From Candidatus Nomurabacteria bacterium (lineage in GTDB: Bacteria > Patescibacteriota > Minisyncoccia > Phycocordibacterales > UBA918), in the NCBI GenBank assembly GCA_020632095.1, contig JACKGF010000001.1, positions 70,549 through 134,548 of the forward strand: a stretch of DNA of 64,000 nt, written 5' to 3'. A model generated the notes under the pieces. It searched no databases and was not told the DNA's origin. It was given only the letters and a program-made list of their open reading frames with translations. Both the position numbers and the translations under genes were made by a program. The stretch's first letter is position 1; every line of letters starts with the position of its first letter. This document shows, piece by piece, positions 45,701 to 62,401 of the stretch.

Positions 45701-48700
45701 TCAACTTTCTGGCGTTTCTCAGGCGGAATCGGCGATCTGTATGGTGAAGCTTTTGACAATGATGATGGTGATCCAGGTTCTATTCAATGGGATGATAGTA
45801 ACTTCGCTATTTCAATTTCCGGTACAGTTTATAGTGATGATGGTGTAACTCCGGCTACCGCTCCACTCTGTAACAATTCAACCGAGGTTGTTACAGTGGT
45901 GCTTGATGGGGTCACTACCTATACTGCACCTTGTGATCCGCTGGACGGAACCTTTACAGTTAGTGGTATTTCTTATACTGGTGAGCCGCAAATCGTAACT
46001 TACATTAATAGTGAGGCAACTGCTTCACAAGTGAATGTTGGAATCTATGACGAAATTACTGGTAATGGAAATGTAACAAGTAACTTAATGACAGTGTCTC
46101 GACCAGCGGTAGTTGATGGTTCTGTCCTAGTACTCATTGCTGGTAAGGATGACGATATAAACTTCAACGCGCCACCAGCTGGCTGGGTAGCGGTAGATGT
46201 GCTTGGAAACACTACTGGTGACAATATTACTACTGGTATTTGGTACAAGGTGGTGGCAACTGCGGGTACTGAGCCAGCTACCTACGATTTTTCAGTGACT
46301 GACGCCGGGGAAGGTTTTAGTTATTGGATGGGAAGTTTGATTAATGTGGATACCAGTACTCCGATTGATGTAGCTAGTGTTTGGTCAAAACTGCAAAACC
46401 AGACTGACCCAGTGGCTCAGGGAATCAATACAGTCACCAATGGTGCTTTGGTATTGTCTGCTTGGTACTCATATATTGATACAGAAACTGTTGCCCCAAT
46501 CTACGACTGGTCAGCTAGAGCGGAAAATATTCTTGATTCTGCTAACAACAACCTTACTGTCGTATCGCGCTTAATGACGACTGCTGGTGATACAGGAAGT
46601 ACCTCGATTAGTGGCGTGATAAGTACACGTGAGACTCATGTTGGACAATTTGCTTTCCGACCGGCCAGCTCACCAACCGCCACTGGTACGATGGTAGCAG
46701 CAGCTGTCACCAAAACTCCGCTTGGAAGTACAGGAGCTCCGTATGAGACTGTTGAGTTACGAGACCAAAGAAATGGTTTTGGTACTGTTCTTAATGGTGC
46801 TAATATTGTGGTCAATCGGCCCGCCGTACAAAATGGTGACGTGATGTTTGCAATTATTGGTAAGGAAGATGATTTCAGTATTACACCACCTGCTGGTTGG
46901 GTGATTGGTGCGGATAGATTGGAAGCTACCGGTAATGATATGTATAGTGCCATCTGGTATCACGAAGTTACCAATGCTGGTAGTGAACCGGCTACTTACG
47001 ATTTCTTAAGCAATGATGACACGATCGAGGAATATTCTTATTGGGTGGGTTCTTTCTCTGGTGTCGATACTACTAATGTCTTTGATGTCACTCCAGCTTG
47101 GAGTAACTTACAAAATGATTCCTCACCAGCGGCTCCAACCTTAACTACTACCAAAGCCGGAGCTTACGTACTAGCGGCTTGGTATGTGATTGATGATGGG
47201 GCTATGGATATGCCAGCTGCACCATGGAAGACTTTGGCTCAGGACTTGCAAGTAGCCAATCGGCTACTTGCAGTGTCTGGTCGGCCAATGCCAACAGTGG
47301 GAGCTACGGGTGCCGCCGTATTGACTGGGGGAAGTGTCGATGACGTCAATGTTGGTCAATTTGCTATTCGTCCAGCGCCAGTATCAGTAGCCAGCAATAT
47401 TACCGATATGGATTTGTATCAAGATCGTGTGATTGTCCGACATGAGGATATTCTGCCGCTGACCATTGCTGACATGACTGTTTTTGATAATGGTGATGAT
47501 AGCGACTTACCGTTTACCGCTTCTACTGGGTCACCAGACTTACTAACAGTTCTTTCCGGTAGTGGTTTAGTAGTTTGGAATAATCGAACTTTTGACTCTG
47601 GTGGACAAGTTGTTTTGGCTGGTGCCGGAGCGACTAGTGCGGATGGTTCATTGTTGGTCAATCAATCAGGAATCTTTAAAGCTAATGGTTCGGACGGAGT
47701 TTCTATTGGAGGTTCACTGTATCTTGATACAAGCGGTAGTTTTGTTGGAGCAACTAGTAATGTTGATTTTACTGCTACTAATGCTGGTCAAACAATCGGT
47801 GCAGCTGGCAGTGCGACTATTACCTTCAACGATATCAGCTTCAGTGGTGTGGATGGAAATTGGGCTGTACAAACCCCAATTGTTTCGGAGACTGGTATTA
47901 ATGTTGCAACTGGTACGTTGTCTGGAACCAATAATATTACGGTCAATACGGGTTCATTTAAAGGAAATGGTACCGTAAATATGACTGGAGGAACTACCTT
48001 GGTTAAGCGCGCAAATACGTTTGGTGGTACGACTCCTTGGACTCTATATAACTTAACTCTTGGCGATGGAACACATAGCGAGATTACTACACCGGCTACA
48101 AACGCTACAACTACTGTTAGTAATGTATTAACAATTGCCACTTCACACTTCCTAAACGCTTATGGTTCAGTTTGGGACTTGCAAGGAAGCGGTAACCCAT
48201 TTGTCGAAAACGGAACATTTGTAGAAGCTACTAGTACGGTTCGTTATAGTGGAGCGACACCAAATATTAAGCGTACAGCCTACTATAACCTAGTAGTTGA
48301 TAACGACGGGGCCAGTACTGTTGTAGCAACTGCACCGACTACTGGTTTACAGGTACTTAAGAACTTCACGGTTGGAGCACTAGGAACATCAACTATTAAT
48401 GTCACAACCAATGATCCGACTTTTGGAGTGGGAGGCAAGGTATATATCGGAACAAAAGGAACTTTGATCGCAAGTAACTCACAAACATTAACCGCTCAAG
48501 GTGATTGGGAAAATGATGGAACCTTTACTTCTAGTGGTGGTACCGTTGCTTTCACCAAGTCTTCCGGTAGTGCGACTATCGCCGCTGGAAACTCTACGTT
48601 CGGTAATGTAAGTATCACCGGAACAGCCAACTATACAATTTCAGAAAATGCGACCACTACCGGTAGTCTAACTCTTAGTGCTGGTACCTTTACTTTGGCT

Positions 48701-51700
48701 AGTGGTCAGAGATTAGCGGTGGGTGGTAGTTTTTCTTCGACTATGTCAAATGTAAATACTACTTGGACTGGTACAACTTTGTATTTGTATAGTGGTACTT
48801 CATACACTATTAATGCCAAAACAAAATCTGAAACCTTTGAAAATATTATTACGGGAGATGGTACACATCCTAGAGTTTGGAATGCAACTACGACATCTGT
48901 AGTAACAGACGGAGCCAGTTCACTCTACTCGATGAATCATCAGGGAGTAGTTGGGTCACTTATGATCTATGGTGATTATGTTAACTCTTCATACAGTGAT
49001 TACTGGGATTACGCTAAGAACTTTGATGGAGTAGCTCTTGGTTCTTCAAGACAAGCAGTGGTGACAATTGAAAATGGTGGTTCAGTAAAATATCAAGGTG
49101 GTAGTTTGGAACTTGTTGGATCTACTACCGCATCTACTACAGTGGCGGTTGAAGGTGGCTCTGGTACCTATGACTTTACAATTGGCGGTACTACGGCAGT
49201 GAATATGAATTATTATCAATTCCGGAATACAACCATTGATGGTCTTGTCTTTACGGGTGCGCCTAGTGTCTCAGATATTTCTCACGGAGATTTTGAGGTG
49301 GCGATTGATGGTGGTTCTACTATGACGGTGGGAGGAGCCGTTATAACGGCTAATCCGGCCTTGAACTTCACTGGTATCAGAATGGCGACTACGACGGCTA
49401 TTAATGCTTATAACGTGACAGCGACTGGTACCAGTGCTAGTGCTTGGCGGTTTGTAAATGTGGTTGGAAACCTTGATGGTGAAGCAAAGGATAATGATCC
49501 AGGGGGAGATCCGGGTTATGTTACTTGGCAAGATTCAGCAGCGATTATTAATATTTCTGGCACGGTCTATAGTGATGAAGGGTCTAGTGTTTCAGCTGCT
49601 TGCGATGGTACTACCAATAACGTGATTTTGAGTGTTCACGGTCTATCAATTGCTTCAACCACTTGTAACGGTGATGGGTTAGGTGGAGGAACTGGTGACT
49701 ACTCTTTCGTTGGTGTTAATTTCGGCTTAGGAAATACCTTAACTGTTTACATCGGTGGTGAGACAGAAAAGGCAGCGACTGTGACAAAGGATCCGATTTC
49801 ATCTCTAAGTAATATGGACTTGTATGAAAATCGAGTGATTGTACGTCACGAAAGTGCAGCGGCTATGACTATTGCCGCGATGTCAGTGTGGGATAGTTCA
49901 GATGATGCTGATATTCCATTTACGGCTGTAAATGCGGGTACAGACACTCTAGACTTGCCAGCCGACTTTAAATTGTTGGTTTGGGATAGTAAGAAATTTA
50001 CTCCAGCTGGTAATGTAACTGTGCCAGGGGGTGGTTCTGGTAGTGCCTTTGATGGAACCATCGAACTTCAAGACAACGCTCTGTTCACTGCAGCCAATGG
50101 TGAAACACACACCTTTGGCGGAAGCTTCATTAGTGGCACTAATGCTGTCTTTAACGCTGCTCAGTCTTCCGTGACCTTCACCTCTGCGGTGGCTGGCCGA
50201 ACTATAAACATTAATAATGATGATTTCTACAATCTGACCTTCAATGGGGCTGGTGATTGGACAATAACTGACTCTCTAATAAATGTTGGGGGTAATCTTA
50301 CTATTACGGCTGGTGATATTGTGCTGCCGACTGGTGCAACAACTATTACTGGTTCGTTCAATAATAATGGCGGAACCTTTAATGCTAATGGCGGCTCTCT
50401 AGTCTTCAACTCCACAGCTTCAGGCAAGACTGTTAAGTTTGGTGGTTCTGACGCTAACACCGTTCGCTTTGCTGGTACTGCAGGTACTTGGACAATGTCT
50501 GACACAAATGCCACTGCTACAGACTCATTTACTGTAGCGACAGGAACAGTCACTTTGCCAACTGGCGTGCTGACGGTGGGAGATGATTTTGTGGTCAAAT
50601 CGGCTGTGACTCACGCTGGTGGTGAAGTTAAGGTAACTGGTACCGGAGGAGGAAATCTGGTCACTTTGGCGGCTAGTACGCTTGGGTCTTTGACTATTGA
50701 TGCAGGGGCTGGTGATTACACTCTGACTGATGCTTCTGCTGCTTTGACTAAAAATCTAACAATTCAAAGTGGTAGCTTTACAGTCGGGACAGGCACTCTT
50801 TCTGTTGGAGGTTCATTCGATGCTTCAGCTGGAACCTTTACGCAAACTGCTGGAACGGTGTTGTTTAACTCAAGTGATACAGGAGAGATTATCAATGCGG
50901 GTGCCAACATCTTCTATAACCTAGTACTGGCTGGAGCTGGTGGTGGCTGGACGATTGTTGAAAATGCTACCACTACTAATAACTTTACTCTGAGTCTCGG
51001 TTCATCCTTTACCTTAAGTTCCGGAAAAATATTAAGCATCGGTGGAGTATTTACCAATACTCTTGGTGGCTCTGCCACCAACTGGACTGGTTCAACTTTG
51101 GCACTACGCAGTGGTACTGAGTATGAAACAAATGTTAAAACTACACCGGTTGAGTATTACGACACCTTGATCCTTGATCCTAATACTGATATCAGTAGTT
51201 GGAATTCAGTAGCGACCACGACAGTTATACCAAGTACTTCATCATGGTACTCACAAGATCATGGCAGTGTTGATGGAAGTCTTTATGTTTACGGTGATTA
51301 CCATATTGCTACCACCACTGAGTACTGGAGTCGAGCGACTGATTTTGATGGGGTGGCGCTTGGTTCACCACGAGCTGTATCAGTAAAAATTGCAGATGGT
51401 TCGGTTATTACGGTAGAGGGTGGAGGACTGAGAATAATCGGTACAGCCGCTGCGACTTCAACCGTCGCCAATCAAGGTTCTGGTGACTACACCTTCAAGG
51501 TTAAGGGCGGAATATTCAATGCTAGTTATTATTCATTTAGAAATCTTGATATTGACGGTCTAAGGCTAAGTGGTGCACCAACTATTACCTCTTTAAGTAA
51601 TGGAGACTTTGCTCAGGCTGAAAATTCATCAAAATTAATCACTGCCTCATCAACTGTTATTAATGCCAATGCTTCTCTGGTCATAACTGATACATCTTTT

Positions 51701-54133
51701 GCCAATGCTGGTTATACAGGGGGAACAAACATCGCTCTTAATGCAACAACCACGAATAGTTGGTCGGTGACTGGTGCATACGGAAACTTATGGGGAGAAG
51801 CCTATGACATCGACGGAACAGATGACTGTAGTTCAATTCGTTGGGACGATAGTGCTTGTCTCTTGACTGAACAAACCACTTTCCGCTGGAGGAATGATGA
51901 TGGAGGGGAAGGGGCACCAGCCAGTACTTGGTATAACGGAAGTTGGAGCGCTCGAAAACGAGTCAGAGTAATTAACGCCGATCCTACTGCTTACACTGAT
52001 GTGGCCGTTAAACTAACCGTAGCGTACGATTCTGATATGCAGACAGACTTTGATGAATTACGATTTACCGATAGTTCTGGTACTAATATTATTCCGCACT
52101 GGATAGAGAGTTACACTACAGGTGTAACAGCCCAAGTCTGGGTTAAAGTACCAACTCTAGCCACCAGCAGTGCGACTGAGATATTTATGTACTACGGTAA
52201 CGTATCGGCTACCTCAACTAGTGATCCAAGTAACGTGTTTGAGATTTACGATGATTTTGAGGACGATGACATTGTTGAGTATTCAGGGGATACATCTTTG
52301 TTTAACACGGCTGGAACCTTTGCTTATGGGGGAGGTTTTGGCCTTGATACAGCTGGACACGAAAGCTCTAAAGCGACAGATGGTATTGCGCGAACTGATA
52401 TTACAGTTGCTCAGGGTCAAATTATTCGCTTTATGCAGTATGTTGATACAGGAGTCGGTTCTGGCGATGAGGTTTGTACTTTGTTTGGTGTGCAGTCTCC
52501 GGTGACTATAAATAATAACTACGCTGTTTGTATCGAGCAGTATGGTGTGGATAGAATATCTCTGGTTAAAAATGCTCAAAACGCTGATACTTCTGGTACT
52601 GTCTTAGCTTCCGCTAATGTTTCTTATAGTACCGGTTGGTACGAGGTTGAAGTGGACTGGAAAACAACTAACCAAATGGATGTGTCATTATTTAATTCTG
52701 CTGGAACATTAGTTGCTACTACATCTGCAATCGACAGTACGTATACTTCAGGAGGAATCGGATTTACTTATTGGGGTCAGAACGGTGGTTGGGATAGTTA
52801 TGTATCGTGGCCACGCACTAAGACAAAGCCAACTGCCTATTTCGGTGCGGAGCAAGTAACAGGAGGAGCTACTTGGGCGGCTGCTCAGGACACAGCGGTT
52901 GGAGGCTTTGCTTTTGGTGCTGTGGCTCGGCTTCGAATTGGTGTAGAGAATACAGGTTTACCGATTACTAACCAAAACTTCAGATTGGAATTTGCACCAA
53001 AATTAACTGCTCCAAGTTGTGAGGGGGTAGATGCTGGATCGTTTGTGGCGGTGCCAAATGTGGCTAGCTGTGGTTCGTCTGCAATTTGTATGAAAGCCTC
53101 AGCGCATATTAGTGACAATGCTAACACTACTGATCATTTGCTAACTGAGGCGGGATTATTTGTGGCAGGTAAGACAGTGACAAATAGTAGTAATCAGACC
53201 TCAAATCTCAATATTGACCAAAATCGTTACACCGAGCTTGAATACGCTATTACTCTGACTGTTAATGCTACTAACGACGCTTATTGTTTCCGAGTGACTG
53301 ATGGTGGCTCGAGTTTGGATTCATACGCCAAATTAGCTGAACTGACTCTGGCTTTTGATCCAGTATTGGGTGCTGTATCGTTAAATAATGGTATGGACAT
53401 TGCTCTTTCTCCTGGTGCTACAACTACAATCATAGCTACAACAACTGTTTCAGATTATAACGGTGTGGCTGACTTGAATGTGGCAACCACCACTTTCTAC
53501 AAAACATCAGCTACTGCCAGCTGTACTCCTGATAATAATAATTGTTATGTTGCCTCTAGTACTGCCTGTGTGTTCTCTGACTGTACAGCTACCAGTTGTA
53601 CCCTTACTTGTAGCGCTGACTTCCAATTCCATGCTGACGCGACTGATGCGGACGGAGGTGAAGAATGGTTTGCCTTTATGGAAGTATCAGATATGTCGGG
53701 GGCAACAGACTTTGATACATCAATGGGAGTTGAAGTTTTGACACTTCGAGCCCTTGAGGTGCAAAATGCAATTGGTTACGGAACAGTTGATATCAATCAA
53801 AACACTGGAACCTACAATCCATCAGTTTCGCTACAGAACTATGGTAATGAGGCTATTGATGTCCAGATTGCTGGTACGGATATGACCGACGGGGTAGCGT
53901 CAGTTATTCCAGCCTCAGAGCAATTGTTCTCAACTTCAACCTTCGATTATGTTTCTTGTAGTAGCTGTAACTCATTGTCAGTCACTGGTACTAATGTTGA
54001 GGTCGATTTGAGTAAACCAGTGGTAGATACGCCATATGTGTCAGATGATATTTACTGGGGAATTGAAGTACCGTTTGGTACTGCTAGTAACCCGCACAGT
54101 GGTGTAAATACCTTTACCGCAATTTCTGATTAG
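30734..54133 (+). CDS. giant (7799 aa) secreted adhesin-like surface protein: six DUF2341+LamG (Laminin_G_3-like) modules, FN3/Ig-like domains, beta-helix-like repeat tracts, tandem ~290-aa modules and a Cys-rich C-terminal domain
   Basis: The ORF is uninterrupted, with an SD and N-terminal signal anchor MYKVDKKSHKILIFSILVSLIIFSAYFVHA. Recurrent modules read TDFPVY[IV]D[LM]STLG..FW..V..DGRDIR[IV]T...ELP.DLV.ID..A.TGELHFLA...YY.N....A...S.YG..AVW..Y.AV.HF, followed by a jelly-roll ending IDELRFA. Module starts fall near nt 33.5, 34.6, 41.1, 42.7 and 44.7 kb, with a variant near 52.0 kb. The FN3-like motifs WRVRADDPGG and WRVRAKDPNGG are also present. Confidence 0.85.
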   Translation: MYKVDKKSHKILIFSILVSLIIFSAYFVHAQFFSNAYVVRTINVFPSVVESEGWNNVETITFQNLGEYALLQEFNTINSATLDEDYWSHDTGTSTSGTPEPVVNDNDVEVTPVPEVEFEFSVPSTGDSVVPQDMIDYEVPVVSQTSTEDVQIVVPEPEVVLPEEEAVESGTTTVLRRAGSLFSLAVSTVTSLLDGSSSTEAVNPSVSLGVAAEDSTALSDEVIETTIDEAEVVEVVPEPKVLTTEDVVEDPVNEVVEISAPEESIPSTTVSIDTEKLVEDIPVVETDPVVETIDEVVDLPDVLDIISDSLTSVESDAHVACTDDCQPFTITLSDFGYPIGEGVEVTGAQLRLSVGAEKKQSRERIPSLDIRYTIDDGQTWNSAGLILIEDQVSSGINGGYYLFALQEVISQETLNTLKVEISYQDNPEIVKGLFVESAWLELFTLEAPEEPVSSDILELLANDGYDDTLMSGDKLISPEGDKIEFDFTDDNKNETLIIKSDKVSYSGLSEVTTYFSVTNTTDADDEFSLQTYFPSGVGEVKNIEVYNRNKPRDAVIPEYRPYVYNCEAGWEYAGEFVPQTLEELSQKLAESLSEEVDNGSLVEPDVQVGVPEETIETSVDEGVETKDVPSPAADSSSEIEVDFAIPETSPADEASFDETITNNTTTVLNLLNTTSKLLQSDIITTTDEALVNDVQTDPVVNLSESGDEKVPAYTCRNTNVVRECDELDGENTACLVKQVKVDEHPVTQYAPGWDKVDLETGGLPKASLLRRMAEFVGFGPDKKEVPDAFEVRSHTGKQYVVKAGETKYFKMDISFPPFSNGEYWIEAIGDSEYGLLDPFWSSQWQYRMPIRVPNPTGSSQSEYQMFFELDSSLTDFWSNVNSDGSDVRFVQEVVKGNLVDENNPEFDNPYDKDWTGRMAITIPATSVSTGLADFPVYIDMSTLGPAFWSGVASDGRDIRITKQDGVSELPYDLVEIDTTAETGELHFLANALSSVSDNTFHIYYNNPSATAYASTSQYGSQAVWANYEAVYHFSDDPTAVTNVITDFTGNGQELEVEGAALATTTGAMGTALDMTGSTGVLRDVGDDWGWTAGDDLVSSGLYFQSAVSGEALWEFGSTANPNWAGYMPWYANADPTIGRGYMYFGLNQNGTWNRNTAVWHHFTTIAPSTAGNLHGIYDNGVLELSGTQNVTDPSNLGGLQVGRWTTGGSYNGIIDELRFAADDTVYTPGWISTEHLNQTDPTTFYSTSTKLTGGGSREGWYSTSWENRTKFTLAQSSDLTDFPVYLDLATLGDDFFNNVASDGRDIRITNGDNTAELPFELVSIDTGAKTGELYFKTDLTADASTDYYIYYNNSDAAAYAKTAIYGAENVWTNGYVAVYHLEEDMAGISNANVYKDSTSNQYDGDDENSSDGKLGLFGAGQEFGDSQNDYLSLPKEVLDGTTNVSVSWWHNSSTTGDMTITSGANSSDANEFWDRLNNNNRVYIYSQGQQELATIDNSDTYNDGTWQYYMTIRDYDAQYKSMVRNGVLDAQSPIVSNPVIAAHTIDNGGLVIGQDQDSVGGGFSSSENFEGFLDELRYADVVRDPSWAAAEYENMANQSSFISTSTAETLSATNFVELDFWIQHFDDTADEADIWVQLESLPAGEDTIIYMYYGNSGAASASDELATFSYSTSTDIYYVVDDSGASSVTVESLVDNNEVAIDGGTPVSLNQGESTTFGTFTGASVISVLGPISGTVTGASSDGSDMIVPISFATTTFAIPTNRNTNRWYIVSPFASSTIRTYIAAAGSPSQTLNAATGTVVTSTTEVPNSGQGVDGSGLVIDATAPVLAIHRSTNPGDGLTLYPPTNRDLFGVTSNFMHVSALASNSDPTVTCSTGAGGTITGITRGDHEADASCTAAAEGAGSAVRLSGQASPITALQQADSDGTDSSMYWPQHEFGTRYAMTNSTGYVAVVCSPRFGSVDLEVQDTLGNTVSTGTCTPSGSNPGKAYFNNGNGTDGDAVNYTGGHQIVSTNGEPFYMMYEDVSVDQDEKNAAGPVQGRKFDGIVRDIYQFGNQEIANPTEYEQLSYLWYQNSLSNTPTSTWENSPGEYLVEAQNITGAGAVDNGDVLRLRINAVGSNATATANTQAFNLQYAAASTGQCSTATAWNDVGQQGSTTAVFNGYNNSGVADGEDLVTSTLASTTVLGTYEERNYSDFIPSQVNPGDVVEWDWVITANDIAVNSNYCFRMVKATGEVFETYTAYPELETVGPPSTPVNLLFFDNENTAVLTPVLEFYAIDNSNDDINYQIQIDDDYDFSSVVLDKNSDTNFLQFENLAVPSDKSPFNSGQRVRFTGLTGLTPTTTYYWRVRADDPGGSATTSDWSEPFSFTTDTTVTVSEWMQTTGRQFDTNSLTSLSTSSGAVTMIGSTGQMTSTPIYFNNGSVGNAWGEVSWNDTETSGTILISVQYNNNGSWTLVPDSLIPGNSLGTSTSPINLLELDTSTYGQIRLVANFAGTTLSLQDWKVKWGLRVETPDLGDLFDNQKTPDLLPVFDFVSSDPQGDDLEYEISFSTDYNFITSSSTYNSSVDAGFIDTVAGTSSSPFGSGNRVTYTKQAGSPFVDGNTYWWRVRAKDPNGGDSWSPWSVQDSFTVDVATTLSTWFQTTRAQFSQGVLDGTIATSGGAVIVSEDIGEYGTATLTNNNWLTINTQRDYTNMVVTASPEYAGPLWSGARTPRVRNKTSNSFEIKVDDYTDAFSGSTVVDYMVMEAGDWIIQDGGSGVRILADTVSVSGVQNQPYANNVGTDITFSPAFSAAPVALTTVSSDNETAWVATNVDDGTTSTAEVTTTNMGIALSLSRSGTTHSTPEDVDYMVIEPGSGTNKGVKFKSMNSTDNVDDYQTNGGYGQALAAGFSVAPGVTVIANNGTDGGDGGFAYKNLSGSQTAGSLFMSIHEMGATADQHTQEIVSIMAFENSSGLIARLNAGNLSGTFAGEDIIFSDGAGPKFDNFAWNDSTPATSEILYQIEYEVSDGVYALIPDSQIPGNSTGTTTSPIDLTNVDIDAYPIIRAFATLTCGGGSCPQLDDWQLEWSEGVNMSGTLKEYDRTTNVATGTVKVAVNGSPVAGTGSVVAGVWTFNNVTAFNGDIINVWVDGAAESEEAVAAFVYDGLGDISGVELFEQHLSISSDEDGTVTNALLALYDNSVSANEDIFYEVDASNNLVVCGVGSCADANIYVGPGDKYIASAVTAVSVTAHDLINDGSIELDTNTFNISGSWDNNATSSTDTATINMTAATGTESVSSTETPLKFHNMSFGSGAGDATFTIPTDLDLSGNLTVASGTLDRGSYKINLAGSLLTGAGGYWVGTATTTFDGGSGKTWTDNNPVKQNVGDVVIDGASAFVSVTTDVAAYDVTIGYNDTLAGGSAHTIYVAGDWTNNGTFNAGTSRVEIVVDDRTYPPVVPGSADWYADSNFDKRLAVVVDSNEVPGTLTDFPIFVDLSTLGNSFWTDVAGNGKDIRVTSDDGQTELPHDLVAIDNTAKTGELHFLADSVSGSTSTTFYIYFDNPSATAPSAGSQYGSEAVWKGYEAVWHFNEVPSLGATLHDATGNGRNLVVDTEALATTSGQMGVAVDLAGSTGILTDDDYSWTAGDKLVSSGWYYQAAASTEALWSWGTSNDYIFMPWYSGTTGYFRFGSSAGGTNYVISPRNGTIWHHFSTLAPTSTGATMNVYEDSILRDTTPLQVDDPTAGPLQIGRYQTAGSLEGSIDELRFSTTTQSTNWVQAEYSNQKHPTIFYATTSVQTYVPDLVIDEATHDILAGGSSFYDLYFNDATTSPAFVSTSAVVSNDFTIASGTVALPTGKLTIGGSFLNTGYFMHNNSEIEFNGAGAETITLSGTDFFNVLYDVTFSGSGSWVITDTNATTSNDFIINSGTVTFPSGVLNIGGTLDVNSGGFNANGGTVYFTSAVNESVVTLGSSFNNVIFGSSEPAEQWYDQAWNYRTAIVIASSSVYSTLTDFPVYVDLSTLGTDFWDNVTLDGRGLRMTQGDGITEVPIDLVSINVGAQTGELHFLANQLSSTADTTFYLYHNNSDALTAEADSTYGSQAVWAGYAAVYHFNDDPTLGVTDESGHGKDLSPLVGTPVISTGKIGNALDTTGSSILMGDSDWTWTAGEDLVSSGWYYQTAVDAGALWQWGDATGSNNDTWLAFMPWYTGTTGYHRFGVTTGDTYSFARTGTEWHHFTTNGMATPGLTNEIFEDALVRDTLTQTVTNPTNTGLKVGRYQTGNYYNALIDELRFATTSRSYEWVQTEYANQSDASSFYTSNTETYLEVVPSFTLNESVTDVDGDVTIQYANLVSPSSNFKIGGSALNIFSSYDPNNATTTFDSTDTGETVQFGVGAFYNLAFDGVGGGWTIATTTVNNDASLLNGYDFTLQSGTVLSVGGRFTNDFNAASTTWAGTTLSLSGGDYTVTHRLDSGDDYAKVIVSGDSDIVIWNSSISTSSVRDNSSLYLPDYGGSNGLLRIYGEYTRSSGTEYWSYATDFDGTDLTGGGERPVTVEIGRAAEVTMATGTTLSIIGDSAASTTIDAITGIYDLTVNAGTLDATYFTVTGAGPEGLHLTNGTILNQLSSAEFNVAGGRSGITADADTINAQPSTEFSLVNFATSSFTSIYEPAWTEQVVVTIQSSVVTEDLTNYPVYINLADLGDTFWSNVQSDGRDIRVTTNKGIELPIDLVEINAVAKTGELHFLASNISSNENTAFYIHFGNPSATAYAQSDEYGANAVWIGYEAVYHFNEDPTVRITDVSGNGRDLLPTVGTAATTTGLLGTAIDTTAGNVRLENTGWTWTPGEDLISSGLYFQSAFDTGALWQFGSGNGTNNGSYLAFLPWYDNATRGYHYFGITTGGDYNFARNNTIWHHFTTIGRAADGALNEFYQDNILRDTVAQITSSANPTNTGLRIGAYQTTTYMDIDIDELRFATTTRSAGWIDTQYRNLTNRSTFYATSSAQTTTYNVTADGVPSTFWRFSGGIGDLYGEAFDNDDGDPGSIQWDDSNFAISISGTVYSDDGVTPATAPLCNNSTEVVTVVLDGVTTYTAPCDPLDGTFTVSGISYTGEPQIVTYINSEATASQVNVGIYDEITGNGNVTSNLMTVSRPAVVDGSVLVLIAGKDDDINFNAPPAGWVAVDVLGNTTGDNITTGIWYKVVATAGTEPATYDFSVTDAGEGFSYWMGSLINVDTSTPIDVASVWSKLQNQTDPVAQGINTVTNGALVLSAWYSYIDTETVAPIYDWSARAENILDSANNNLTVVSRLMTTAGDTGSTSISGVISTRETHVGQFAFRPASSPTATGTMVAAAVTKTPLGSTGAPYETVELRDQRNGFGTVLNGANIVVNRPAVQNGDVMFAIIGKEDDFSITPPAGWVIGADRLEATGNDMYSAIWYHEVTNAGSEPATYDFLSNDDTIEEYSYWVGSFSGVDTTNVFDVTPAWSNLQNDSSPAAPTLTTTKAGAYVLAAWYVIDDGAMDMPAAPWKTLAQDLQVANRLLAVSGRPMPTVGATGAAVLTGGSVDDVNVGQFAIRPAPVSVASNITDMDLYQDRVIVRHEDILPLTIADMTVFDNGDDSDLPFTASTGSPDLLTVLSGSGLVVWNNRTFDSGGQVVLAGAGATSADGSLLVNQSGIFKANGSDGVSIGGSLYLDTSGSFVGATSNVDFTATNAGQTIGAAGSATITFNDISFSGVDGNWAVQTPIVSETGINVATGTLSGTNNITVNTGSFKGNGTVNMTGGTTLVKRANTFGGTTPWTLYNLTLGDGTHSEITTPATNATTTVSNVLTIATSHFLNAYGSVWDLQGSGNPFVENGTFVEATSTVRYSGATPNIKRTAYYNLVVDNDGASTVVATAPTTGLQVLKNFTVGALGTSTINVTTNDPTFGVGGKVYIGTKGTLIASNSQTLTAQGDWENDGTFTSSGGTVAFTKSSGSATIAAGNSTFGNVSITGTANYTISENATTTGSLTLSAGTFTLASGQRLAVGGSFSSTMSNVNTTWTGTTLYLYSGTSYTINAKTKSETFENIITGDGTHPRVWNATTTSVVTDGASSLYSMNHQGVVGSLMIYGDYVNSSYSDYWDYAKNFDGVALGSSRQAVVTIENGGSVKYQGGSLELVGSTTASTTVAVEGGSGTYDFTIGGTTAVNMNYYQFRNTTIDGLVFTGAPSVSDISHGDFEVAIDGGSTMTVGGAVITANPALNFTGIRMATTTAINAYNVTATGTSASAWRFVNVVGNLDGEAKDNDPGGDPGYVTWQDSAAIINISGTVYSDEGSSVSAACDGTTNNVILSVHGLSIASTTCNGDGLGGGTGDYSFVGVNFGLGNTLTVYIGGETEKAATVTKDPISSLSNMDLYENRVIVRHESAAAMTIAAMSVWDSSDDADIPFTAVNAGTDTLDLPADFKLLVWDSKKFTPAGNVTVPGGGSGSAFDGTIELQDNALFTAANGETHTFGGSFISGTNAVFNAAQSSVTFTSAVAGRTININNDDFYNLTFNGAGDWTITDSLINVGGNLTITAGDIVLPTGATTITGSFNNNGGTFNANGGSLVFNSTASGKTVKFGGSDANTVRFAGTAGTWTMSDTNATATDSFTVATGTVTLPTGVLTVGDDFVVKSAVTHAGGEVKVTGTGGGNLVTLAASTLGSLTIDAGAGDYTLTDASAALTKNLTIQSGSFTVGTGTLSVGGSFDASAGTFTQTAGTVLFNSSDTGEIINAGANIFYNLVLAGAGGGWTIVENATTTNNFTLSLGSSFTLSSGKILSIGGVFTNTLGGSATNWTGSTLALRSGTEYETNVKTTPVEYYDTLILDPNTDISSWNSVATTTVIPSTSSWYSQDHGSVDGSLYVYGDYHIATTTEYWSRATDFDGVALGSPRAVSVKIADGSVITVEGGGLRIIGTAAATSTVANQGSGDYTFKVKGGIFNASYYSFRNLDIDGLRLSGAPTITSLSNGDFAQAENSSKLITASSTVINANASLVITDTSFANAGYTGGTNIALNATTTNSWSVTGAYGNLWGEAYDIDGTDDCSSIRWDDSACLLTEQTTFRWRNDDGGEGAPASTWYNGSWSARKRVRVINADPTAYTDVAVKLTVAYDSDMQTDFDELRFTDSSGTNIIPHWIESYTTGVTAQVWVKVPTLATSSATEIFMYYGNVSATSTSDPSNVFEIYDDFEDDDIVEYSGDTSLFNTAGTFAYGGGFGLDTAGHESSKATDGIARTDITVAQGQIIRFMQYVDTGVGSGDEVCTLFGVQSPVTINNNYAVCIEQYGVDRISLVKNAQNADTSGTVLASANVSYSTGWYEVEVDWKTTNQMDVSLFNSAGTLVATTSAIDSTYTSGGIGFTYWGQNGGWDSYVSWPRTKTKPTAYFGAEQVTGGATWAAAQDTAVGGFAFGAVARLRIGVENTGLPITNQNFRLEFAPKLTAPSCEGVDAGSFVAVPNVASCGSSAICMKASAHISDNANTTDHLLTEAGLFVAGKTVTNSSNQTSNLNIDQNRYTELEYAITLTVNATNDAYCFRVTDGGSSLDSYAKLAELTLAFDPVLGAVSLNNGMDIALSPGATTTIIATTTVSDYNGVADLNVATTTFYKTSATASCTPDNNNCYVASSTACVFSDCTATSCTLTCSADFQFHADATDADGGEEWFAFMEVSDMSGATDFDTSMGVEVLTLRALEVQNAIGYGTVDINQNTGTYNPSVSLQNYGNEAIDVQIAGTDMTDGVASVIPASEQLFSTSTFDYVSCSSCNSLSVTGTNVEVDLSKPVVDTPYVSDDIYWGIEVPFGTASNPHSGVNTFTAISD

Positions 54134-54138
54134 TTAGT

Positions 54139-55728
54139 ATGTATCCTATGAATTTAAAAAAGTGGCGTGATACACTAATAGCTATGAGGAAAGTTTTGAA
54201 TTTGTTCTTGGTGCCAGTGATATGTCTTGCTCTGGTGTTATTATCAATGCCAGTTTTTACTGTATCGGCTGAGGATAGTACTGCTCCAGAAATCAGTAAC
54301 GTTCAGTTGATTGATGTATCGGACACTAGTGTAACTGTAACCTGGGAAACGGATGAAGATGCTGATTCTTTGGTTAACTATGGATTGCAACCGGATTACG
54401 GAATTGTACGTATTCCAGTAGCTGATCGCACCTCCCATTCAATTACTCTTAGTGACCTTGATCCGGGCAGGGTTTACTACTTTAGAGTGGTTTCGGCTGA
54501 TGAAAGTGGTAATCAGGGTATTTCGGCGGACTATCGAGTACAAACTTCTGGTACGCCACAAACGGGTGAGGGAGAAGGTACTGGACAGGCTGCCGCTGAA
54601 GGGGCTGGTAAAGGACCTCAGGATGGTATTGGTGATGGAGGTAGTTCAAATAATAATAGTGATTTAGCTACCCAAGAAATTATTGAGAAGATAAATCAAA
54701 TTATTAATCCAAAACAGTTGCAAGAAATTCTTAATGAAACAGTCAAGGCAATTGAAGGGATAACAGAAGACCTGACTATCGTTGGTCCGCCAACAGTTAT
54801 CCCAGAAACCACCACAGCATTAATTAAATGGAATACAGACCGTGAAGCTTCGTCAGAAGTCCTTTTCTCTCCAACTAAAAGTTTCGACGGGACAAATTTT
54901 GAATTTTCACAACAATCAACTGGTGGAGATGTGACCGAGCATGAGATTAATGTTATTGGACTAGATGCTTTCACAGAATATAGTTTTAAGGTTATTTCAA
55001 CCGATGGTTATGGAATTAGGGGGGAGAGTAAGGTTTATAAATTTAAGACCAAAGCAACCGCACCAGGGATTCGTAATTTGCGAGTCCTTAAAGTAGAAGA
55101 AAACGCCGCTACTTTAGCTTGGGATACAAATGTACCGGCTAAAGCCTTGGTTGAATACCAGGATCAGACTACTGGGGCTCAGAACTCAGTTGGTCGACCA
55201 ACTCTGTCCACTTCTCACCAAATGCGCTTGGCTGATTTGACTTTGGGTACGCGGTACGTGGCTTTTGTGACAGCTGAAAACTCTGGCGGAGACCGAGTAA
55301 AAAGTCAGCCAATTCAGTTTATTACAGTGCGAGATATTGCCGCTCCGATTATCACTAACGTTACCAATGAGTCAACTCTTTTCCCTGGTAGTGAGTCAAG
55401 AATTCAGACTATTATTGAATGGGATACTGATGAACCAGCACTTTGTTTGATGACTTATCAAGAAGGTGTGGCGGGAGCTTCTGAGTCCTATACTATTGAA
55501 AAAGAGGTAATCTCATATATTGAAAAGCACGTGGAAGTGGTGGTAGATTTTGCACCAGCGACGGTTTATCAGTTTTATTTGACTTGTGAGGATGAGGCCG
55601 GTAATAGTATCAAGTCTGATAATTTTGTGTTGTTTACGCCGATTCAGGAGAAGAATATTATTGACTTGATATTGGAGAACTTCCAGTCAACCTTCGGTTG
55701 GGTTAAGAATATCAGCGGAGGAGGTTAG
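54139..55728 (+). CDS. membrane-anchored protein with four fibronectin type III-like domains
   Basis: Starts 5 nt after the giant gene stop. N-terminal TM, then repeated FN3 signatures (APEISNVQLIDVSDTSVTVTWETDEDADSLVNYG...YYFRVVSADESGN). Confidence 0.6.
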   Translation: MYPMNLKKWRDTLIAMRKVLNLFLVPVICLALVLLSMPVFTVSAEDSTAPEISNVQLIDVSDTSVTVTWETDEDADSLVNYGLQPDYGIVRIPVADRTSHSITLSDLDPGRVYYFRVVSADESGNQGISADYRVQTSGTPQTGEGEGTGQAAAEGAGKGPQDGIGDGGSSNNNSDLATQEIIEKINQIINPKQLQEILNETVKAIEGITEDLTIVGPPTVIPETTTALIKWNTDREASSEVLFSPTKSFDGTNFEFSQQSTGGDVTEHEINVIGLDAFTEYSFKVISTDGYGIRGESKVYKFKTKATAPGIRNLRVLKVEENAATLAWDTNVPAKALVEYQDQTTGAQNSVGRPTLSTSHQMRLADLTLGTRYVAFVTAENSGGDRVKSQPIQFITVRDIAAPIITNVTNESTLFPGSESRIQTIIEWDTDEPALCLMTYQEGVAGASESYTIEKEVISYIEKHVEVVVDFAPATVYQFYLTCEDEAGNSIKSDNFVLFTPIQEKNIIDLILENFQSTFGWVKNISGGG

Positions 55729-56076: not shown

Positions 56077-56078
56077 GG

Positions 56079-56326: not shown

Positions 56327-56520
56327 GAAGGGGGCAAATTAAGAACTAAATTCACAATAGTCGCTACGCTCGTTTGTTCATTTAATCTTCGGTTGGGTTA
56401 AGAATATCAGCGGAGGAGGTTAGGTGCAGTGCTGATGTCCGGCGATCTGCACTTGGAGGGAGTGGGATGTGGAGTAGTTGGTAGATGTGGATTCAAACAT
56501 AAGGTTTTTTAGACATAAGA
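56327..56520 (+). repeat. further repeat-family copy plus a partial third copy of the upstream gene tail
   Basis: Conserved arm aagaactaaattcacaatagtcgctacgctcgtttgttcatttaatc, then cttcggttgggttaagaatatcagcggaggaggttagg (56386-56423), then hairpin gcagtgctgatgtccggcgatctgcac. Confidence 0.7.
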
Positions 56521-56535: not shown

Positions 56536-57858
56536 ATGGCGAAACCTCTCATTGTTTGTCGTGATCTATCGATTATTTATAATCAAGGTAAATCAAACGA
56601 ATTTAAAGCCCTGCAGGGGGTAAATACAGATATTTTTGAAGGTGAATACATCATTCTTTTTGGTGCATCAGGTTCTGGTAAGTCAACTTTGATGTATTCA
56701 ATTCAAGGCTCTCTGCCACCTGGAGAGGGGACTCTGCTTATTAAGGGTGACGATATTTATTCTTACCCACCGTCCGAACGAGTCTACTTTCAGCGTTATG
56801 TTATGGGTATTATCTTTCAGTCTTTCAACCTGATTGGTTCACTATCAGTGCTTGATAATGTGGCTCTACCAATGATTTTTTGTGATGCTGACCGTACAAC
56901 GCGCGAAAGACGTGCACAGTCTTTGCTCGATAGGTTTGGGGTAGGTCACGTGTCACATAAGATTCCGGCTATGCTTTCTGGAGGTCAGCAACAACGTGTG
57001 TCAGTGGCTCGTTCGATGGTTAATGACCCTAAGATTTTATTGGCTGACGAACCGACCGGAAACCTCGACTCAGTTTCAACCCAACAGGTGATGGATAAAA
57101 TTGACGAAATTAACACCTTTGATCGACGGACTATTATTATGGTGTCACACAATGCTGCTCACTTGAGCTATGCACATCGCGTTTATTACTTGAAAGATGG
57201 CTTTATTGTACGTGAAGTGGTTAATCCACAGCGTAAACAAATTAAACCAGTTAAGGAAGGGGAGACGATTGTAACTGAATTAGAGCAATTAGCTCGCTTG
57301 TTTCCGTATGACTCAGTTGAGACTCTGCGGGTTAAGAGTTTAGTTAATTATCTAACTCAAGATTTCAGTTTCGATCAGATTATTCGTCTTGAACGAGCGA
57401 CGGGAATGTTTATTCAAGGGAAGGTTGATAGAGATGCTTATATTAAAAGTCTGGTTCTACCACTTGAAAGGGGTGGGGTGGAGGTTGATACGAAAGAAGC
57501 AAGGCGAATGGCTAGTGTGACAGAAAGTTTGATAAATAACGCTGACGATATTAGACGTTATCGAGCCAGAAAGGACAACAATAGTATTTTCTTTAGTCAG
57601 CATAAATTGGCCGAGCGTATCAGTGAACACTTGTCTCAAAAATATAATATCAAGCTAAATAAAGAGCAGAACACAAATATTACAGAATTAATCGCTGATA
57701 GAGTAACTGGTGTGATTGAGGATGACGATCTTAACCAACGTTTAATGAAAGGAGTTAAATCTGGTGGTCTCGGACTGAGTGAGAAAGAAGCTGATGATAT
57801 TACTAGGTATTTTGAGAAGGTTATTGCTCAAGGGGTTGATGTTAGTTATAAGAATTAG
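56536..57858 (+). CDS. ABC transporter ATP-binding protein (MacB/LolD/FtsE-like) with a ~210-aa C-terminal extension
   Basis: Walker A GASGSGKST, signature LSGGQQQRVSVARS, Walker B ILLADEPTGNLD, H-loop VSHN. The domain ends near residue 225 and is followed by an uncharacterised charged, helical extension. Confidence 0.85.
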   Translation: MAKPLIVCRDLSIIYNQGKSNEFKALQGVNTDIFEGEYIILFGASGSGKSTLMYSIQGSLPPGEGTLLIKGDDIYSYPPSERVYFQRYVMGIIFQSFNLIGSLSVLDNVALPMIFCDADRTTRERRAQSLLDRFGVGHVSHKIPAMLSGGQQQRVSVARSMVNDPKILLADEPTGNLDSVSTQQVMDKIDEINTFDRRTIIMVSHNAAHLSYAHRVYYLKDGFIVREVVNPQRKQIKPVKEGETIVTELEQLARLFPYDSVETLRVKSLVNYLTQDFSFDQIIRLERATGMFIQGKVDRDAYIKSLVLPLERGGVEVDTKEARRMASVTESLINNADDIRRYRARKDNNSIFFSQHKLAERISEHLSQKYNIKLNKEQNTNITELIADRVTGVIEDDDLNQRLMKGVKSGGLGLSEKEADDITRYFEKVIAQGVDVSYKN

Positions 57859-61411: not shown

Positions 61412-61445
61412 AGGGAATTTTTTTCGATAATAAGAGAACTTGTCC

Positions 61446-62399: not shown

Positions 62400-62401
62400 C
62401 T

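What the first reader, a model, noticed from the sequence alone, without database searches (positions are those of the whole stretch)
53650..54133. Shared ~150-aa C-terminal domain between the giant protein and the 627-aa protein next to the ABC/FtsX pair
The last ~150 residues of the giant protein align with the C-terminus of 59471..61354 (about 60900-61354). Matching stretches are ...LEVQNAIGYGTVDINQNTG / ...LANEISYGAIEPGNDTG, then ...EQLFSTSTFDYVSC... / ...EQKFSSTSLSYASG..., then IYWGIEVPFG...GVNTFTAISD / ITYWGIAVPASITLSGSYTGMNTFTAVTAEEADWY. The body sequences are otherwise unrelated.

A conserved C-terminal module on two very different cargo proteins, next to a MacB/FtsX-type transporter, resembles a sorting or anchoring domain. 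T9SS CTDs and PEP-CTERM tags are the analogy. Its cognate machinery is unknown.
Basis: seen in the sequence. Interest (0 to 1): 0.55.

Follow-up and report, generated by a model that had tools for sequence, protein, structure and literature searches.

The report
Shared C-terminal docking module, CPR surface proteins
A 7,799-residue surface protein and a 627-residue protein of a tiny candidate-phyla-radiation (CPR) bacterium end in the same unannotated two-domain module. It is found in thousands of related proteins and always sits next to a conserved membrane-anchored protein that probably holds these proteins on the cell surface.

Summary
The giant protein and the 627-aa protein share about 255-305 residues, not 150. 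These form two beta-sandwich domains at the extreme C-terminus (BLASTP E=5e-22; shuffle z=27).

The module defines a large unannotated Patescibacteria family. A profile search found 2,630 clusters, with no Pfam, NCBIfam or PDB sequence match. It is C-terminal in 137 of the 150 best hits, on carriers of 263-7,696 aa. Some carriers are small secreted proteins that consist of little more than the module.

The invariable neighbour is the 319-aa protein just downstream (61446..62399). A module gene lay directly upstream of it in 61/61 testable metagenome loci and in 75/80 genome loci. This protein has a signal peptide, two Ig-like domains and a C-terminal membrane helix. It is a remote homologue of Firmicute WxLIP (DUF916/DUF3324), and its best PDB fold match is WxLIP bound to a WxL protein.

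The layout (large carrier, small carrier, membrane-anchored partner) mirrors WxL clusters and the newly described CPR Pam pili. The module itself shows no detectable homology to WxL or Pam pilins.

The ABC/FtsX pair is a frequent accessory (60/66 and 25/30 loci) but is absent from the variant with small carriers.

Most likely function: partner-dependent, non-covalent surface docking. This is inferred, not shown.

The parts
53351..54133 (+). Module copy 1. It forms the last ~260 aa of the giant protein: D1 is an Ig-like, Cys-rich domain (~53351-53746) and D2 is the C-terminal beta-sandwich (~53747-54130). It ends ...GVNTFTAISD*.
   Evidence: BLASTP. HMM match to aa 7483-7798, i-E 2.8e-133. AF2 model with pLDDT 80.7, all-beta, two domains.
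60434..61354 (+). Module copy 2. It forms the last ~305 aa of the 627-aa protein: D1 ~60434-60895 and D2 ~60896-61351. It ends ...GMNTFTAVTAEEADWY*.
   Evidence: BLASTP. HMM match to aa 288-621, i-E 8e-82.
30734..54133 (+). Giant carrier, 7,799 aa. It has an N-terminal signal peptide and a body with DUF2341, pentaxin/LamG-like and Ig domains.
   Evidence: ORF list. Pfam. Orthologues of 3,800-7,800 aa in related genomes.
59471..61354 (+). 627-aa carrier (p627). It has an N-terminal signal/anchor, then Ig-like domains, then the module. It is the gene directly upstream of the partner.
   Evidence: Orthologues of 577-675 aa occupy this position.
61446..62399 (+). Partner. It has a signal peptide, an invariant mature N-terminus GFG[IV][ST]PP, two beta-sandwich domains and a C-terminal transmembrane helix. 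It is a remote WxLIP (DUF916/DUF3324)-type protein.
   Evidence: 1,477 homologues at 70-83% identity. AF2 model. Top PDB fold hits 9i25_C and 9i1y, 'WxLIP from E. faecium', E=2.6e-10. hhalign chain through p362. Adjacency to a module gene in 75/80 and 61/61 loci.
56536..57858 (+). ABC ATPase of MacB/LolD/FtsE type, with an unassigned ~215-aa C-terminal extension. It is a frequent accessory of the cluster.
   Evidence: Pfam and NCBIfam. Synteny in 60/66 and 25/30 loci. 83% median identity across loci.
58141..59355 (+). MacB_PCD + FtsX permease, a frequent accessory of the cluster.
54139..55728 (+). Secreted protein with four FN3 domains, lying between the giant and the ABC gene. It is conserved in the cluster.
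   Evidence: Pfam. Homologues found in 62 of the 80 genome loci and in L002.
62360..63505 (+). Big_6/DUF4215/dockerin-like protein directly downstream of the partner. It is a conserved cluster member.
   Evidence: Pfam. Downstream of the partner in 78/80 loci, and also in L001, L085, L086 and L101.
28814..30355 (+). Cohesin-domain protein directly upstream of the giant. Homologues follow the dockerin-like gene in distant clusters.
   Evidence: Pfam..
23858..24946 (+). p362, a paralogue of the partner and a recognisable DUF916/WxLIP_PGBD protein. It serves as the bridge for homology inference.
   Evidence: Pfam PF06030, E=4.2e-5. About a third of the 120 listed orthologues carry PF06030, and some are named 'DUF916 domain-containing protein'. 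hhalign gives 94.1% to WxLIP and 97.1% to the partner.

Best explanation
The shared region is an autonomous two-domain unit of about 260 aa. It consists of an Ig-like, cysteine-rich domain D1 and a C-terminal beta-sandwich D2 ending G-x-N-T-F-x-A. It serves as the cell-proximal docking or assembly end of secreted surface proteins in Patescibacteria.

Proposed mechanism:
1. Carriers are exported by Sec through their N-terminal signal peptides.
2. The module, which is translocated last, is captured non-covalently by the adjacent 319-aa protein.
3. That protein is held in the membrane by its C-terminal helix. It is a distant member of the WxLIP (DUF916-DUF3324-TM) and FimC-like chaperone class.
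4. Capture most plausibly works by beta-strand complementation. The invariant mature N-terminus of the partner is a candidate donor strand.
5. The giant adhesin and the 627-aa protein are thereby tethered to, and possibly chained on, the cell surface.

The system works like Firmicute WxL/WxLIP clusters and like the usher-less Pam pili of CPR bacteria. The MacB-type ABC/FtsX pair is a frequent accessory of one cluster variant and its role is unknown.

Shown: the module, its family, its terminal position, its obligate adjacency to the partner, and the partner's fold and remote homology. Inferred: physical binding, strand complementation and the anchoring function.
For: 1. The module is significant and family-wide. 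Pairwise E=5e-22 and z=27. There are 2,630 clusters, and the module ends within 5 aa of the C-terminus in 137/150 of the best hits, on carriers of 263-7,696 aa.
2. Stand-alone forms exist that are just signal peptide plus module, about 290-325 aa.
3. AF2 predicts two beta-sandwich domains (pLDDT 80.7). The best PDB hits are donor-strand-complemented CfaB pilin fusions, but with low TM-scores.
4. A module gene lies directly upstream of the partner in 75/80 genome loci and in 61/61 testable metagenome loci. The same holds for the distant contigs L001, L002, L085, L086 and L101.
5. The partner has a signal peptide, two beta domains and a TM helix. Its top fold hits are WxLIP (9i25_C 'bound to long WxL', and 9i1y) at E~3e-10, followed by RbmA and the CfaA/FimC chaperones.
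6. Profile comparisons link the partner to WxLIP. The partner matches the p362 family at 97.1% (P=8e-11). The p362 family matches Firmicute WxLIP at 94.1% (P=1e-7). Controls score <=3.9%. p362 orthologues carry PF06030.
7. The cluster layout 'large carrier + small carrier + one TM partner' equals the commonest WxL cluster layout (PMC10599100; PMC9772566).
8. There is a precedent inside the CPR. Pam pilins are built as signal peptide, beta-sandwich, linker strand and truncated Ig domain, with paired cysteines. They have membrane-anchored chaperones, an RbmA-like anchor that inserts an N-terminal strand, and no usher (bioRxiv 10.64898/2026.03.03.709456).
9. The partner's mature N-terminus is invariant but is predicted with pLDDT<50, as expected for a strand that orders only on binding.
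Against:
- The module has no detectable sequence homology to WxL. hhalign gives 0.1-0.2%, and 0/60 members hit any Pfam WxL model.
- It has none to Pam pilins either. 0/60 members plus 4 extra proteins hit NF058581, and D2 against the p384 C-terminal domain gives P=0.12.
- The WxL chain of 9i25 is not among the 50 best PDB fold hits of the module.
- Direct comparison of the partner ectodomain with the WxLIP ectodomain is weak (2.9%, P=0.016). The link rests on a transitive step and on fold ranking with low TM-scores (0.30-0.37).
- Within orthologues the module is no better conserved than the cargo, about 50% identity for both.
- Adjacency could reflect co-expression of surface proteins rather than contact.
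- ABC/FtsX is conserved down to 34% partner identity, so it may be more central than assumed here.
Confidence: 0.55

Rival explanations
1. One reading: the module is a C-terminal secretion or sorting signal that the neighbouring MacB/FtsX-type ABC transporter recognises. The transporter would export, release or sort the carriers.
For: ABC+FtsX lie directly upstream of the p627-like carrier in 60/66 genome loci and 25/30 metagenome loci. These include loci whose partner is only 34-46% identical to the window's. They are the best-conserved genes of the cluster, at 83% median identity.
Against: - Clusters with small stand-alone carriers keep the module and the partner but have no ABC/FtsX within 8-10 kb: L001, L085, L101, L104-106, L117 and L127. 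L070 and L084 have lost it.
- Carriers have N-terminal Sec signal peptides.
- A folded 260-aa two-domain unit is unlike known ABC export signals.
- From general knowledge, MacB-type transporters are not known to recognise C-terminal domains.
Confidence: 0.12
2. The module is a self-sufficient cell-wall or S-layer binding domain. Comparable cases are the SH3b-like C-terminal domains of Apilactobacillus giant proteins, or WxL binding to peptidoglycan. The 319-aa neighbour would be a separate surface protein that is merely co-expressed.
For: The strict C-terminal position and the stand-alone forms. There is a precedent for a shared wall-binding C-terminal domain on giant proteins (PMC12863079). 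WxL domains bind peptidoglycan (Brinster 2007, as cited in PMC9772566).
Against: 100% adjacency with the partner across deep divergence. The partner belongs to a class that binds its neighbour's C-terminal domain (PDB 9i25). No known wall-binding family matches the module.
Confidence: 0.15
3. The module is a true pilin unit. Module proteins would polymerise head-to-tail by donor-strand exchange into a Pam-like filament. Small forms would make the shaft, giant and 627-aa carriers would act as FimH/PapG-style tip adhesins, and the partner would act as chaperone and/or membrane anchor.
For: - The two-domain architecture with conserved cysteines resembles PamA/B (bioRxiv 10.64898/2026.03.03.709456).
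- The best PDB hits of the module are CfaB pilin, and the partner's hits include the CfaA/FimC chaperones and RbmA.
- Tandem arrays of up to four module genes occur (L103).
- The same genome has a Pam-like set, p384 plus p362.
Against: No sequence link to Pam pilins. AF2 predicts a complete C-terminal strand in D2. The window's own cluster has no small shaft-type carrier. TM-scores are low.
Confidence: 0.15
4. The module is just a common Ig-like spacer pair spread by domain shuffling, with no targeting role.
For: PDB fold hits are generic tandem-Ig proteins such as integrins, Fabs and titin. Conservation equals that of the cargo.
Against: There is a single copy per protein, always terminal (137/150). 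The C-terminal end motif is conserved. Stand-alone forms exist. Adjacency to the partner is obligate.
Confidence: 0.03

Closest known systems
WxL / WxLIP (Csc) cell-surface clusters of Firmicutes (Pfam WxL PF13731; WxLIP_PGBD PF06030 = DUF916; DUF3324; PDB 9i25, 9i1y)
   Same: - The docking domain always sits at the extreme C-terminus.
- Small proteins that are little more than the domain occur alongside large multi-domain adhesins that carry it.
- One adjacent protein has a signal peptide, two Ig-like domains and a C-terminal TM helix.
- The partner here is a remote homologue of WxLIP.
- The cluster also holds further surface proteins.
   Different: - The module is two domains of ~260 aa and shows no profile similarity to WxL.
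- It lacks the dual W-x-L motifs spaced 68-106 residues apart. It has only a Y-W-G-[IL] motif and a terminal N-T-F-x-A hairpin.
- There is no LPXTG companion gene.
- The lineage is Patescibacteria.
- Carriers reach 7,800 aa.
- A MacB-type ABC pair and a cohesin/dockerin pair are associated.
Pam pili of CPR bacteria (PamA/B pilins, membrane-anchored PamC/D chaperones, PamR anchor; Troman et al., bioRxiv 10.64898/2026.03.03.709456; NCBIfam NF058581)
   Same: - Same superphylum.
- Secreted two-beta-domain subunits with paired cysteines.
- A partner with two Ig-like domains and a C-terminal TM helix, whose fold hits include FimC-type chaperones and RbmA.
- No usher or dedicated envelope machine.
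- The same window carries a Pam-like pilin candidate (p384) next to a DUF916 protein (p362).
   Different: - The module does not match the Pam pilin model (0/64 proteins) or the p384 family.
- It is fused to huge cargo proteins.
- Pam pilins were reported mainly in Saccharimonadia and Microgenomatia, not in Paceibacteria.
- Donor-strand exchange is untested here.
Chaperone-usher adhesins (FimH/PapG: N-terminal lectin domain + C-terminal pilin domain; CfaA/CfaB)
   Same: Cargo plus a C-terminal pilin-type beta domain that a two-Ig-domain chaperone completes. CfaB and CfaA appear among the fold hits of the module and the partner respectively.
   Different: No outer membrane and no usher. The partner is membrane-anchored. 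TM-scores are low (0.3-0.45). There is no sequence similarity.
T9SS C-terminal domains, and PEP-CTERM/LPXTG sorting signals
   Same: A conserved C-terminal element on diverse secreted cargo.
   Different: The T9SS CTD is a single ~80-100-aa domain of diderm Bacteroidota that a sortase-like PorU removes. PEP-CTERM and LPXTG signals are short motifs followed by a hydrophobic helix and a basic tail. The module has none of these features.

Membership tests
WxL domain (module as member) | Domain located at the extreme C-terminus of secreted proteins, in both small stand-alone and large multi-domain forms | tested here: met
   137/150 carriers end within 5 aa of the module. Stand-alone forms are 290-325 aa.
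WxL domain (module as member) | Sequence match to the WxL profile, with dual Trp-x-Leu motifs 68-106 residues apart | tested here: not met
   0/60 members hit any WxL Pfam model at E<=1. hhalign of the module against a profile of 12 annotated WxL domains gives 0.1% (P=0.45). D2 alone gives 0.2%.
WxL domain (module as member) | Fold like the solved WxL chain (PDB 9i25) | tested here: inconclusive
WxL domain (module as member) | Encoded next to a WxLIP gene | tested here: met
   75/80 genome loci and 61/61 testable metagenome loci.
WxL domain (module as member) | Binds peptidoglycan and WxLIP | not testable with these tools
   Needs biochemistry or multimer modelling.
WxLIP (DUF916-DUF3324-TM) (319-aa partner as member) | Signal peptide, two beta-sandwich domains and a C-terminal TM helix, in about 320-380 aa | tested here: met
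   AF2 secondary structure and helix 287-318. Alignments.
WxLIP (DUF916-DUF3324-TM) (319-aa partner as member) | Match to Pfam PF06030 / DUF3324 above threshold | tested here: not met
   No hit for the partner or for its distant homologues. Only the paralogue p362 and its orthologues match.
WxLIP (DUF916-DUF3324-TM) (319-aa partner as member) | Profile-profile and fold similarity to bona fide WxLIP | tested here: met
   The link is transitive. Partner to p362 family: 97.1%, P=8e-11. p362 family to WxLIP: 94.1%, P=1e-7. Controls <=3.9%. Direct ectodomain comparison gives only 2.9%. The top PDB fold hits are 9i25_C and 9i1y at E~3e-10.
Pam pilus system (module as pilin) | Match to NCBIfam CPR_Pam_pilin_C (NF058581) | tested here: not met
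   0 of 4 proteins and 0 of 60. Only p384 (22562..23716) hits, below threshold (E=0.0035, 17 bits against a 55-bit cutoff).
Pam pilus system (module as pilin) | Signal peptide, beta-sandwich N-terminal domain, linker strand, truncated Ig-like C-terminal domain, and paired cysteines | tested here: inconclusive
   Two beta-sandwich domains and conserved Cys at positions 60, 67 and 80. Whether D2 is truncated or open cannot be judged from the output.
Pam pilus system (module as pilin) | Adjacent membrane-anchored FimC/PapD-like chaperone or RbmA-like anchor | tested here: met
   The partner's fold hits include CfaA, FimC, DraB and RbmA, and it has a TM helix.
Pam pilus system (module as pilin) | Donor-strand-exchange polymerisation | not testable with these tools
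   No multimer prediction was available.
T9SS C-terminal domain | Single ~80-100-aa beta-sandwich on cargo of diderm Bacteroidota with PorU/PorV | tested here: not met
   The module is ~260 aa with two domains. All related loci are Patescibacteria. No T9SS CTD family is matched.
PEP-CTERM / LPXTG-type sorting signals | Short motif followed by a hydrophobic helix and a basic tail at the C-terminus | tested here: not met
   C-termini read ...GVNTFTAISD*...NTFTAVTAEEADWY*...NTFTATGD*. There is no hydrophobic tail.

The most novel reading that the evidence does not exclude
The module and its partner form a previously unrecognised, very widespread (>2,600 clusters at 50% identity) usher-less strand-complementation system of Paceibacteria. 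In it, giant adhesins of up to ~7,800 aa are built in as pilus-tip or surface subunits through a C-terminal pilin-like unit. They are held by a membrane-anchored WxLIP/Pam-chaperone-type protein. In most lineages a dedicated MacB-type ABC transporter would assist by acting mechanically from the membrane. This would be an evolutionary bridge linking Firmicute WxL clusters, CPR Pam pili and chaperone-usher pili.
Probability: 0.15. Interest if true: 0.85.

Novelty: new variant of a known kind. Interest (0 to 1): 0.62.

Why it matters
CPR/Patescibacteria are ultra-small episymbionts whose biology depends on surface contact with hosts. Most of their large surface proteins are unannotated.

This module gives a handle on how thousands of such proteins, including 5,000-7,800-aa giants, are retained on a cell that lacks an outer membrane. 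It names a concrete, highly conserved candidate receptor, the 319-aa membrane-anchored protein, that can be tested by multimer modelling or pull-downs.

It also links three systems so far treated separately: Firmicute WxL/WxLIP, CPR Pam pili and chaperone-usher pili. The link is a shared partner architecture. A Pfam or NCBIfam model of the module would annotate a large block of hypothetical proteins.

Tried and rejected
- Pfam and NCBIfam scans of the module, of 60 family members and of the partner gave no family for the module.
- PDB sequence searches with the module and partner profiles gave nothing meaningful.
I anchored on the partner instead.
- I tested homology of the module to WxL by building WxL and WxLIP profiles from seven annotated Firmicute plasmid clusters. 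The result was negative for the module and positive, by a transitive step, for the partner.
- I tested p384 as a WxL or module relative. The result was not significant.
- I rejected ABC/FtsX as the core partner, because type II clusters lack it. I retained it as an accessory, because its association is deep.
- I rejected the T9SS and PEP-CTERM analogies on anatomy.
- A literature search linking Patescibacteria and WxL found nothing relevant.
- Rfam found nothing in the window.

Full report
**1. The observation**

The giant ORF (30734..54133, 7,799 aa) and the 627-aa ORF (59471..61354) were confirmed. BLASTP of the giant's last 299 aa against the 627-aa protein gives a single co-linear HSP. It covers giant aa 7546-7798 and p627 aa 322-620, at 30% identity and E=5e-22. 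Against the whole giant it is E=1e-18 and nothing else is significant.

Smith-Waterman scores against 500 shuffles:
- whole module, z=27.5
- the upstream half alone, z=4.7
- module-versus-body and internal-chunk controls, z between -0.8 and 3.1

So the similarity is real. The shared unit is about 255-305 aa, roughly twice the ~150 aa reported (window ~53351-54130 and ~60434-61351). Each protein has one copy, at its very end.

**2. What the module is**

Neither Pfam nor NCBIfam matches it. A profile of 16 sequences finds nothing meaningful among PDB sequences.

Homologues of the giant's C-terminus fall into two groups. One is fragments of orthologous giants from Ca. Kaiserbacteria and Parcubacteria. 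The other, more informative, is complete proteins of 290-325 aa that are only a signal peptide plus the module.

An exhaustive profile search of 1.84 billion representatives returned 2,630 clusters at E<=1e-3 and 1,196 at E<=1e-30. Among the 150 best, the module ends within 5 residues of the C-terminus in 137. Carrier lengths run from 263 to 7,696 aa. The conserved end motif is G-x-N-T-F-x-A-x-x-[DE]*. Four of the seven apparent exceptions (P0266, P0283, P0294, P0301) are modules split by a large insertion that still end at the terminus.

Cargo domains differ between carriers: Laminin_G_3, DUF2341, Kelch and F5/8-type-C. The giant itself has DUF2341, pentaxin-like and Ig domains.

AlphaFold2 (16-sequence alignment, pLDDT 80.7) predicts two all-beta domains. 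D1 carries the conserved cysteines. D2 holds the Y-W-G-[IL] strand and the terminal N-T-F-x-A strand. PDB Foldseek gives only generic tandem-Ig matches. The best are donor-strand-complemented CfaB pilin fusions at TM ~0.4.

**3. The conserved neighbour**

Contigs carrying small stand-alone forms showed the same order each time: a large carrier, a small carrier, a ~300-aa protein homologous to window 61440..62399, then a dockerin/DUF4215-like protein and cohesin-like proteins.

The 319-aa window protein has 1,477 homologues, and the 120 listed are 70-83% identical. One is 100% identical and comes from a 997-kb Ca. Nomurabacteria contig.

I anchored on this partner in two scans:
- In one-genome-per-species contigs, 80 Patescibacteria loci were kept. 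A module ORF ends less than 400 bp upstream of the partner in 75/80. Four of the other five are truncated at the partner.
- A metagenome scan with distant partner homologues gave 80 more loci. A module ORF lies directly upstream in 61/61 loci with at least 700 bp of upstream DNA.

The upstream carrier falls into two size classes:
- About 307-325 aa ('type II'). It is usually preceded by a much larger carrier (1,460-1,870-residue ORFs in L104-106) and has no ABC/FtsX.
- About 577-653 aa ('type I'). This is the p627 type, with ABC+FtsX upstream.

**4. What the partner is**

It has a signal peptide, a mature N-terminus that is conserved even in distant members (GFG[IV][ST]PP), two beta-sandwich domains and a C-terminal transmembrane helix. 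The invariant N-terminal segment is predicted with pLDDT<50.

Its best PDB fold matches are 9i25_C ('WxLIP from Enterococcus faecium locus A bound to long WxL') and 9i1y, at E~3e-10. These rank ahead of the Vpr fibril, RbmA and the chaperone-usher chaperones CfaA, FimC and DraB. The TM-scores are low (0.30-0.37).

By sequence the link is transitive:
- The window's 362-aa protein (23858..24946) hits Pfam WxLIP_PGBD (DUF916) at E=4.2e-5.
- Its top PDB sequence hit is EfmWxLIP1.
- About a third of its 120 listed orthologues carry PF06030, and some are named 'DUF916 domain-containing protein'.

I retrieved WxL and WxLIP sequences from seven annotated Firmicute plasmid clusters and ran hhalign:
- p362-family ectodomain against WxLIP ectodomain: 94.1%, P=1.3e-7, over 217 columns
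- p362 family against partner ectodomain: 97.1%, P=7.7e-11
- controls: 0.1-3.9%

The direct comparison of partner and WxLIP ectodomains is weak (2.9%). I conclude that the partner is a divergent member of the WxLIP superfamily.

**5. Comparison with known systems**

Firmicute WxL clusters typically hold one small WxL protein, one large adhesin with a C-terminal WxL domain, and one WxLIP with a TM helix. AF2 predicted that a WxLIP strand inserts into WxL (PMC10599100, PMC9772566), and a WxLIP-long WxL complex has since been solved (PDB 9i25). The layout here is the same.

However, the module is not a detectable WxL domain:
- 0/60 members hit any WxL Pfam model
- hhalign gives 0.1-0.2%
- the WxL chain of 9i25 is not among the module's top 50 fold hits

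A second precedent lies inside the CPR, in the Pam pili (bioRxiv 10.64898/2026.03.03.709456):
- They are built from secreted two-beta-domain pilins with paired cysteines.
- They assemble by donor-strand exchange without an usher.
- Assembly uses membrane-anchored FimC/PapD-like chaperones.
- An RbmA-like TM protein terminates the filament by inserting an N-terminal strand.

The window's p384 (22562..23716), just upstream of p362, gives a sub-threshold but full-length hit to NCBIfam CPR_Pam_pilin_C. The order p384-p362-p138-dockerin-like is conserved. The module itself does not match that model or the p384 family.

So the module works like, but cannot be filed as, a WxL domain or a Pam pilin. 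It is an unannotated family that plays the corresponding part beside a homologous partner.

**6. The ABC/FtsX pair**

ABC+FtsX lie directly upstream of the p627-type carrier in 60/66 genome loci and 25/30 metagenome loci. This holds even where the partner is only 34-46% identical to the window's. They are the best-conserved genes in the cluster, at 83% median identity.

They are absent from type II clusters (L001, L085, L101, L104-106, L117, L127) and are lost in L070 and L084. I therefore treat them as a frequent accessory of unknown role, not as the module's core machinery.

Carriers have Sec-type signal peptides. The module lacks any feature of T9SS, PEP-CTERM or LPXTG signals.

**7. Mechanism and confidence**

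Most likely (0.55), the module is the cell-proximal docking or assembly unit, and the membrane-anchored partner captures it non-covalently. Capture is plausibly by beta-strand complementation. This would tether the giant adhesin and p627 to the surface.

The module, the family, the terminal position, the adjacency, and the partner's fold and homology are shown. Binding and strand insertion are inferred.

Rivals:
- a true Pam-like polymerising pilin (0.15)
- an autonomous wall-binding domain (0.15)
- an ABC-recognised sorting signal (0.12)
- a mere Ig spacer (0.03)

One point counts against a special constraint on the module. Within orthologues it is no better conserved than the cargo, about 50% for both.

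**8. Novelty**

I found no family model, no named protein and no paper covering this module. The principle is known from WxL/WxLIP and Pam. I rate it a new variant of a known kind. It has sizeable annotation value, and there is a clear decisive test: multimer modelling or pull-down of the partner with the module.

Noticed in passing
window 22562-27325: A second, paralogous surface-protein set: p384 (secreted, ends ...YQTTLTYIATPTF), p362 (DUF916/WxLIP_PGBD with a TM helix), p138 (C-terminal TM helix) and p644 (Big_6/dockerin-like). p384 gives a sub-threshold but full-length hit to NCBIfam NF058581, 'CPR Pam pilus system pilin subunit' (E=0.0035). It may be a Pam-like pilus operon in a Paceibacterium, a class in which Pam pilins were not prominently reported. 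The gene order is conserved in L095, L097, L098 and L100.
   Followed up: partly
window 63488-64000: Three copies of a ~90-nt non-coding repeat lie downstream of the dockerin-like gene: 63488-63577, 63612-63701 (73% identity) and 63911-64000 (99%). The two near-identical copies carry the hairpin CGTTGGAGTTTACGTTCCAGCG; the 73% copy has a diverged version. A 20-mer, TGCTCTAGGCAAAGCAAATC, also occurs three times. There is no Rfam match.
   Followed up: partly
window 28814-30355 and 62360-63505 (also 25391-27325): A cohesin-domain protein and dockerin/Big_6/DUF4215 proteins bracket the cluster. Their homologues follow the partner gene in distant clusters (L001, L085, L086, L101). This suggests a cohesin-dockerin-type assembly forms part of the same surface complex.
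   Followed up: partly
window 56536-57858 (aa ~225-440): The MacB/LolD-type ABC ATPase carries a ~215-aa C-terminal extension with no family match. ABC and FtsX are the most conserved genes of the locus (83% median identity across 68-72 loci).
   Followed up: no
window 55729-56535: An ~800-bp stretch between the FN3 gene and the ABC gene holds no listed ORF of 40 aa or more (the ORF list covers only complete ORFs).
   Followed up: no
window 61446-62399 (partner aa 31-41); alignments A3 and A6: The mature N-terminus GFG[IV][ST]PP(Y/K)V is invariant across partners that are otherwise only ~33% identical, yet AF2 models it with pLDDT<50. It is a candidate donor strand.
   Followed up: partly
L103:2944-12029; proteins P0266, P0283, P0294, P0301: Some family members have the module split by a 100-370-aa insertion inside D2. 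L103 carries four module genes in tandem.
   Followed up: no
L101:11985-12332 (also L102): A bAvd/23S_rRNA_IVP-like small gene (accessory protein of diversity-generating retroelements) sits between the dockerin-like and cohesin-like genes of a type II cluster. It hints at targeted hypervariation of surface proteins nearby.
   Followed up: no
P0042 (L087), P0240, P0267: Rare proteins in which the module is not terminal but is followed by 140-350 further residues. P0042's contig shows no partner gene downstream.
   Followed up: partly
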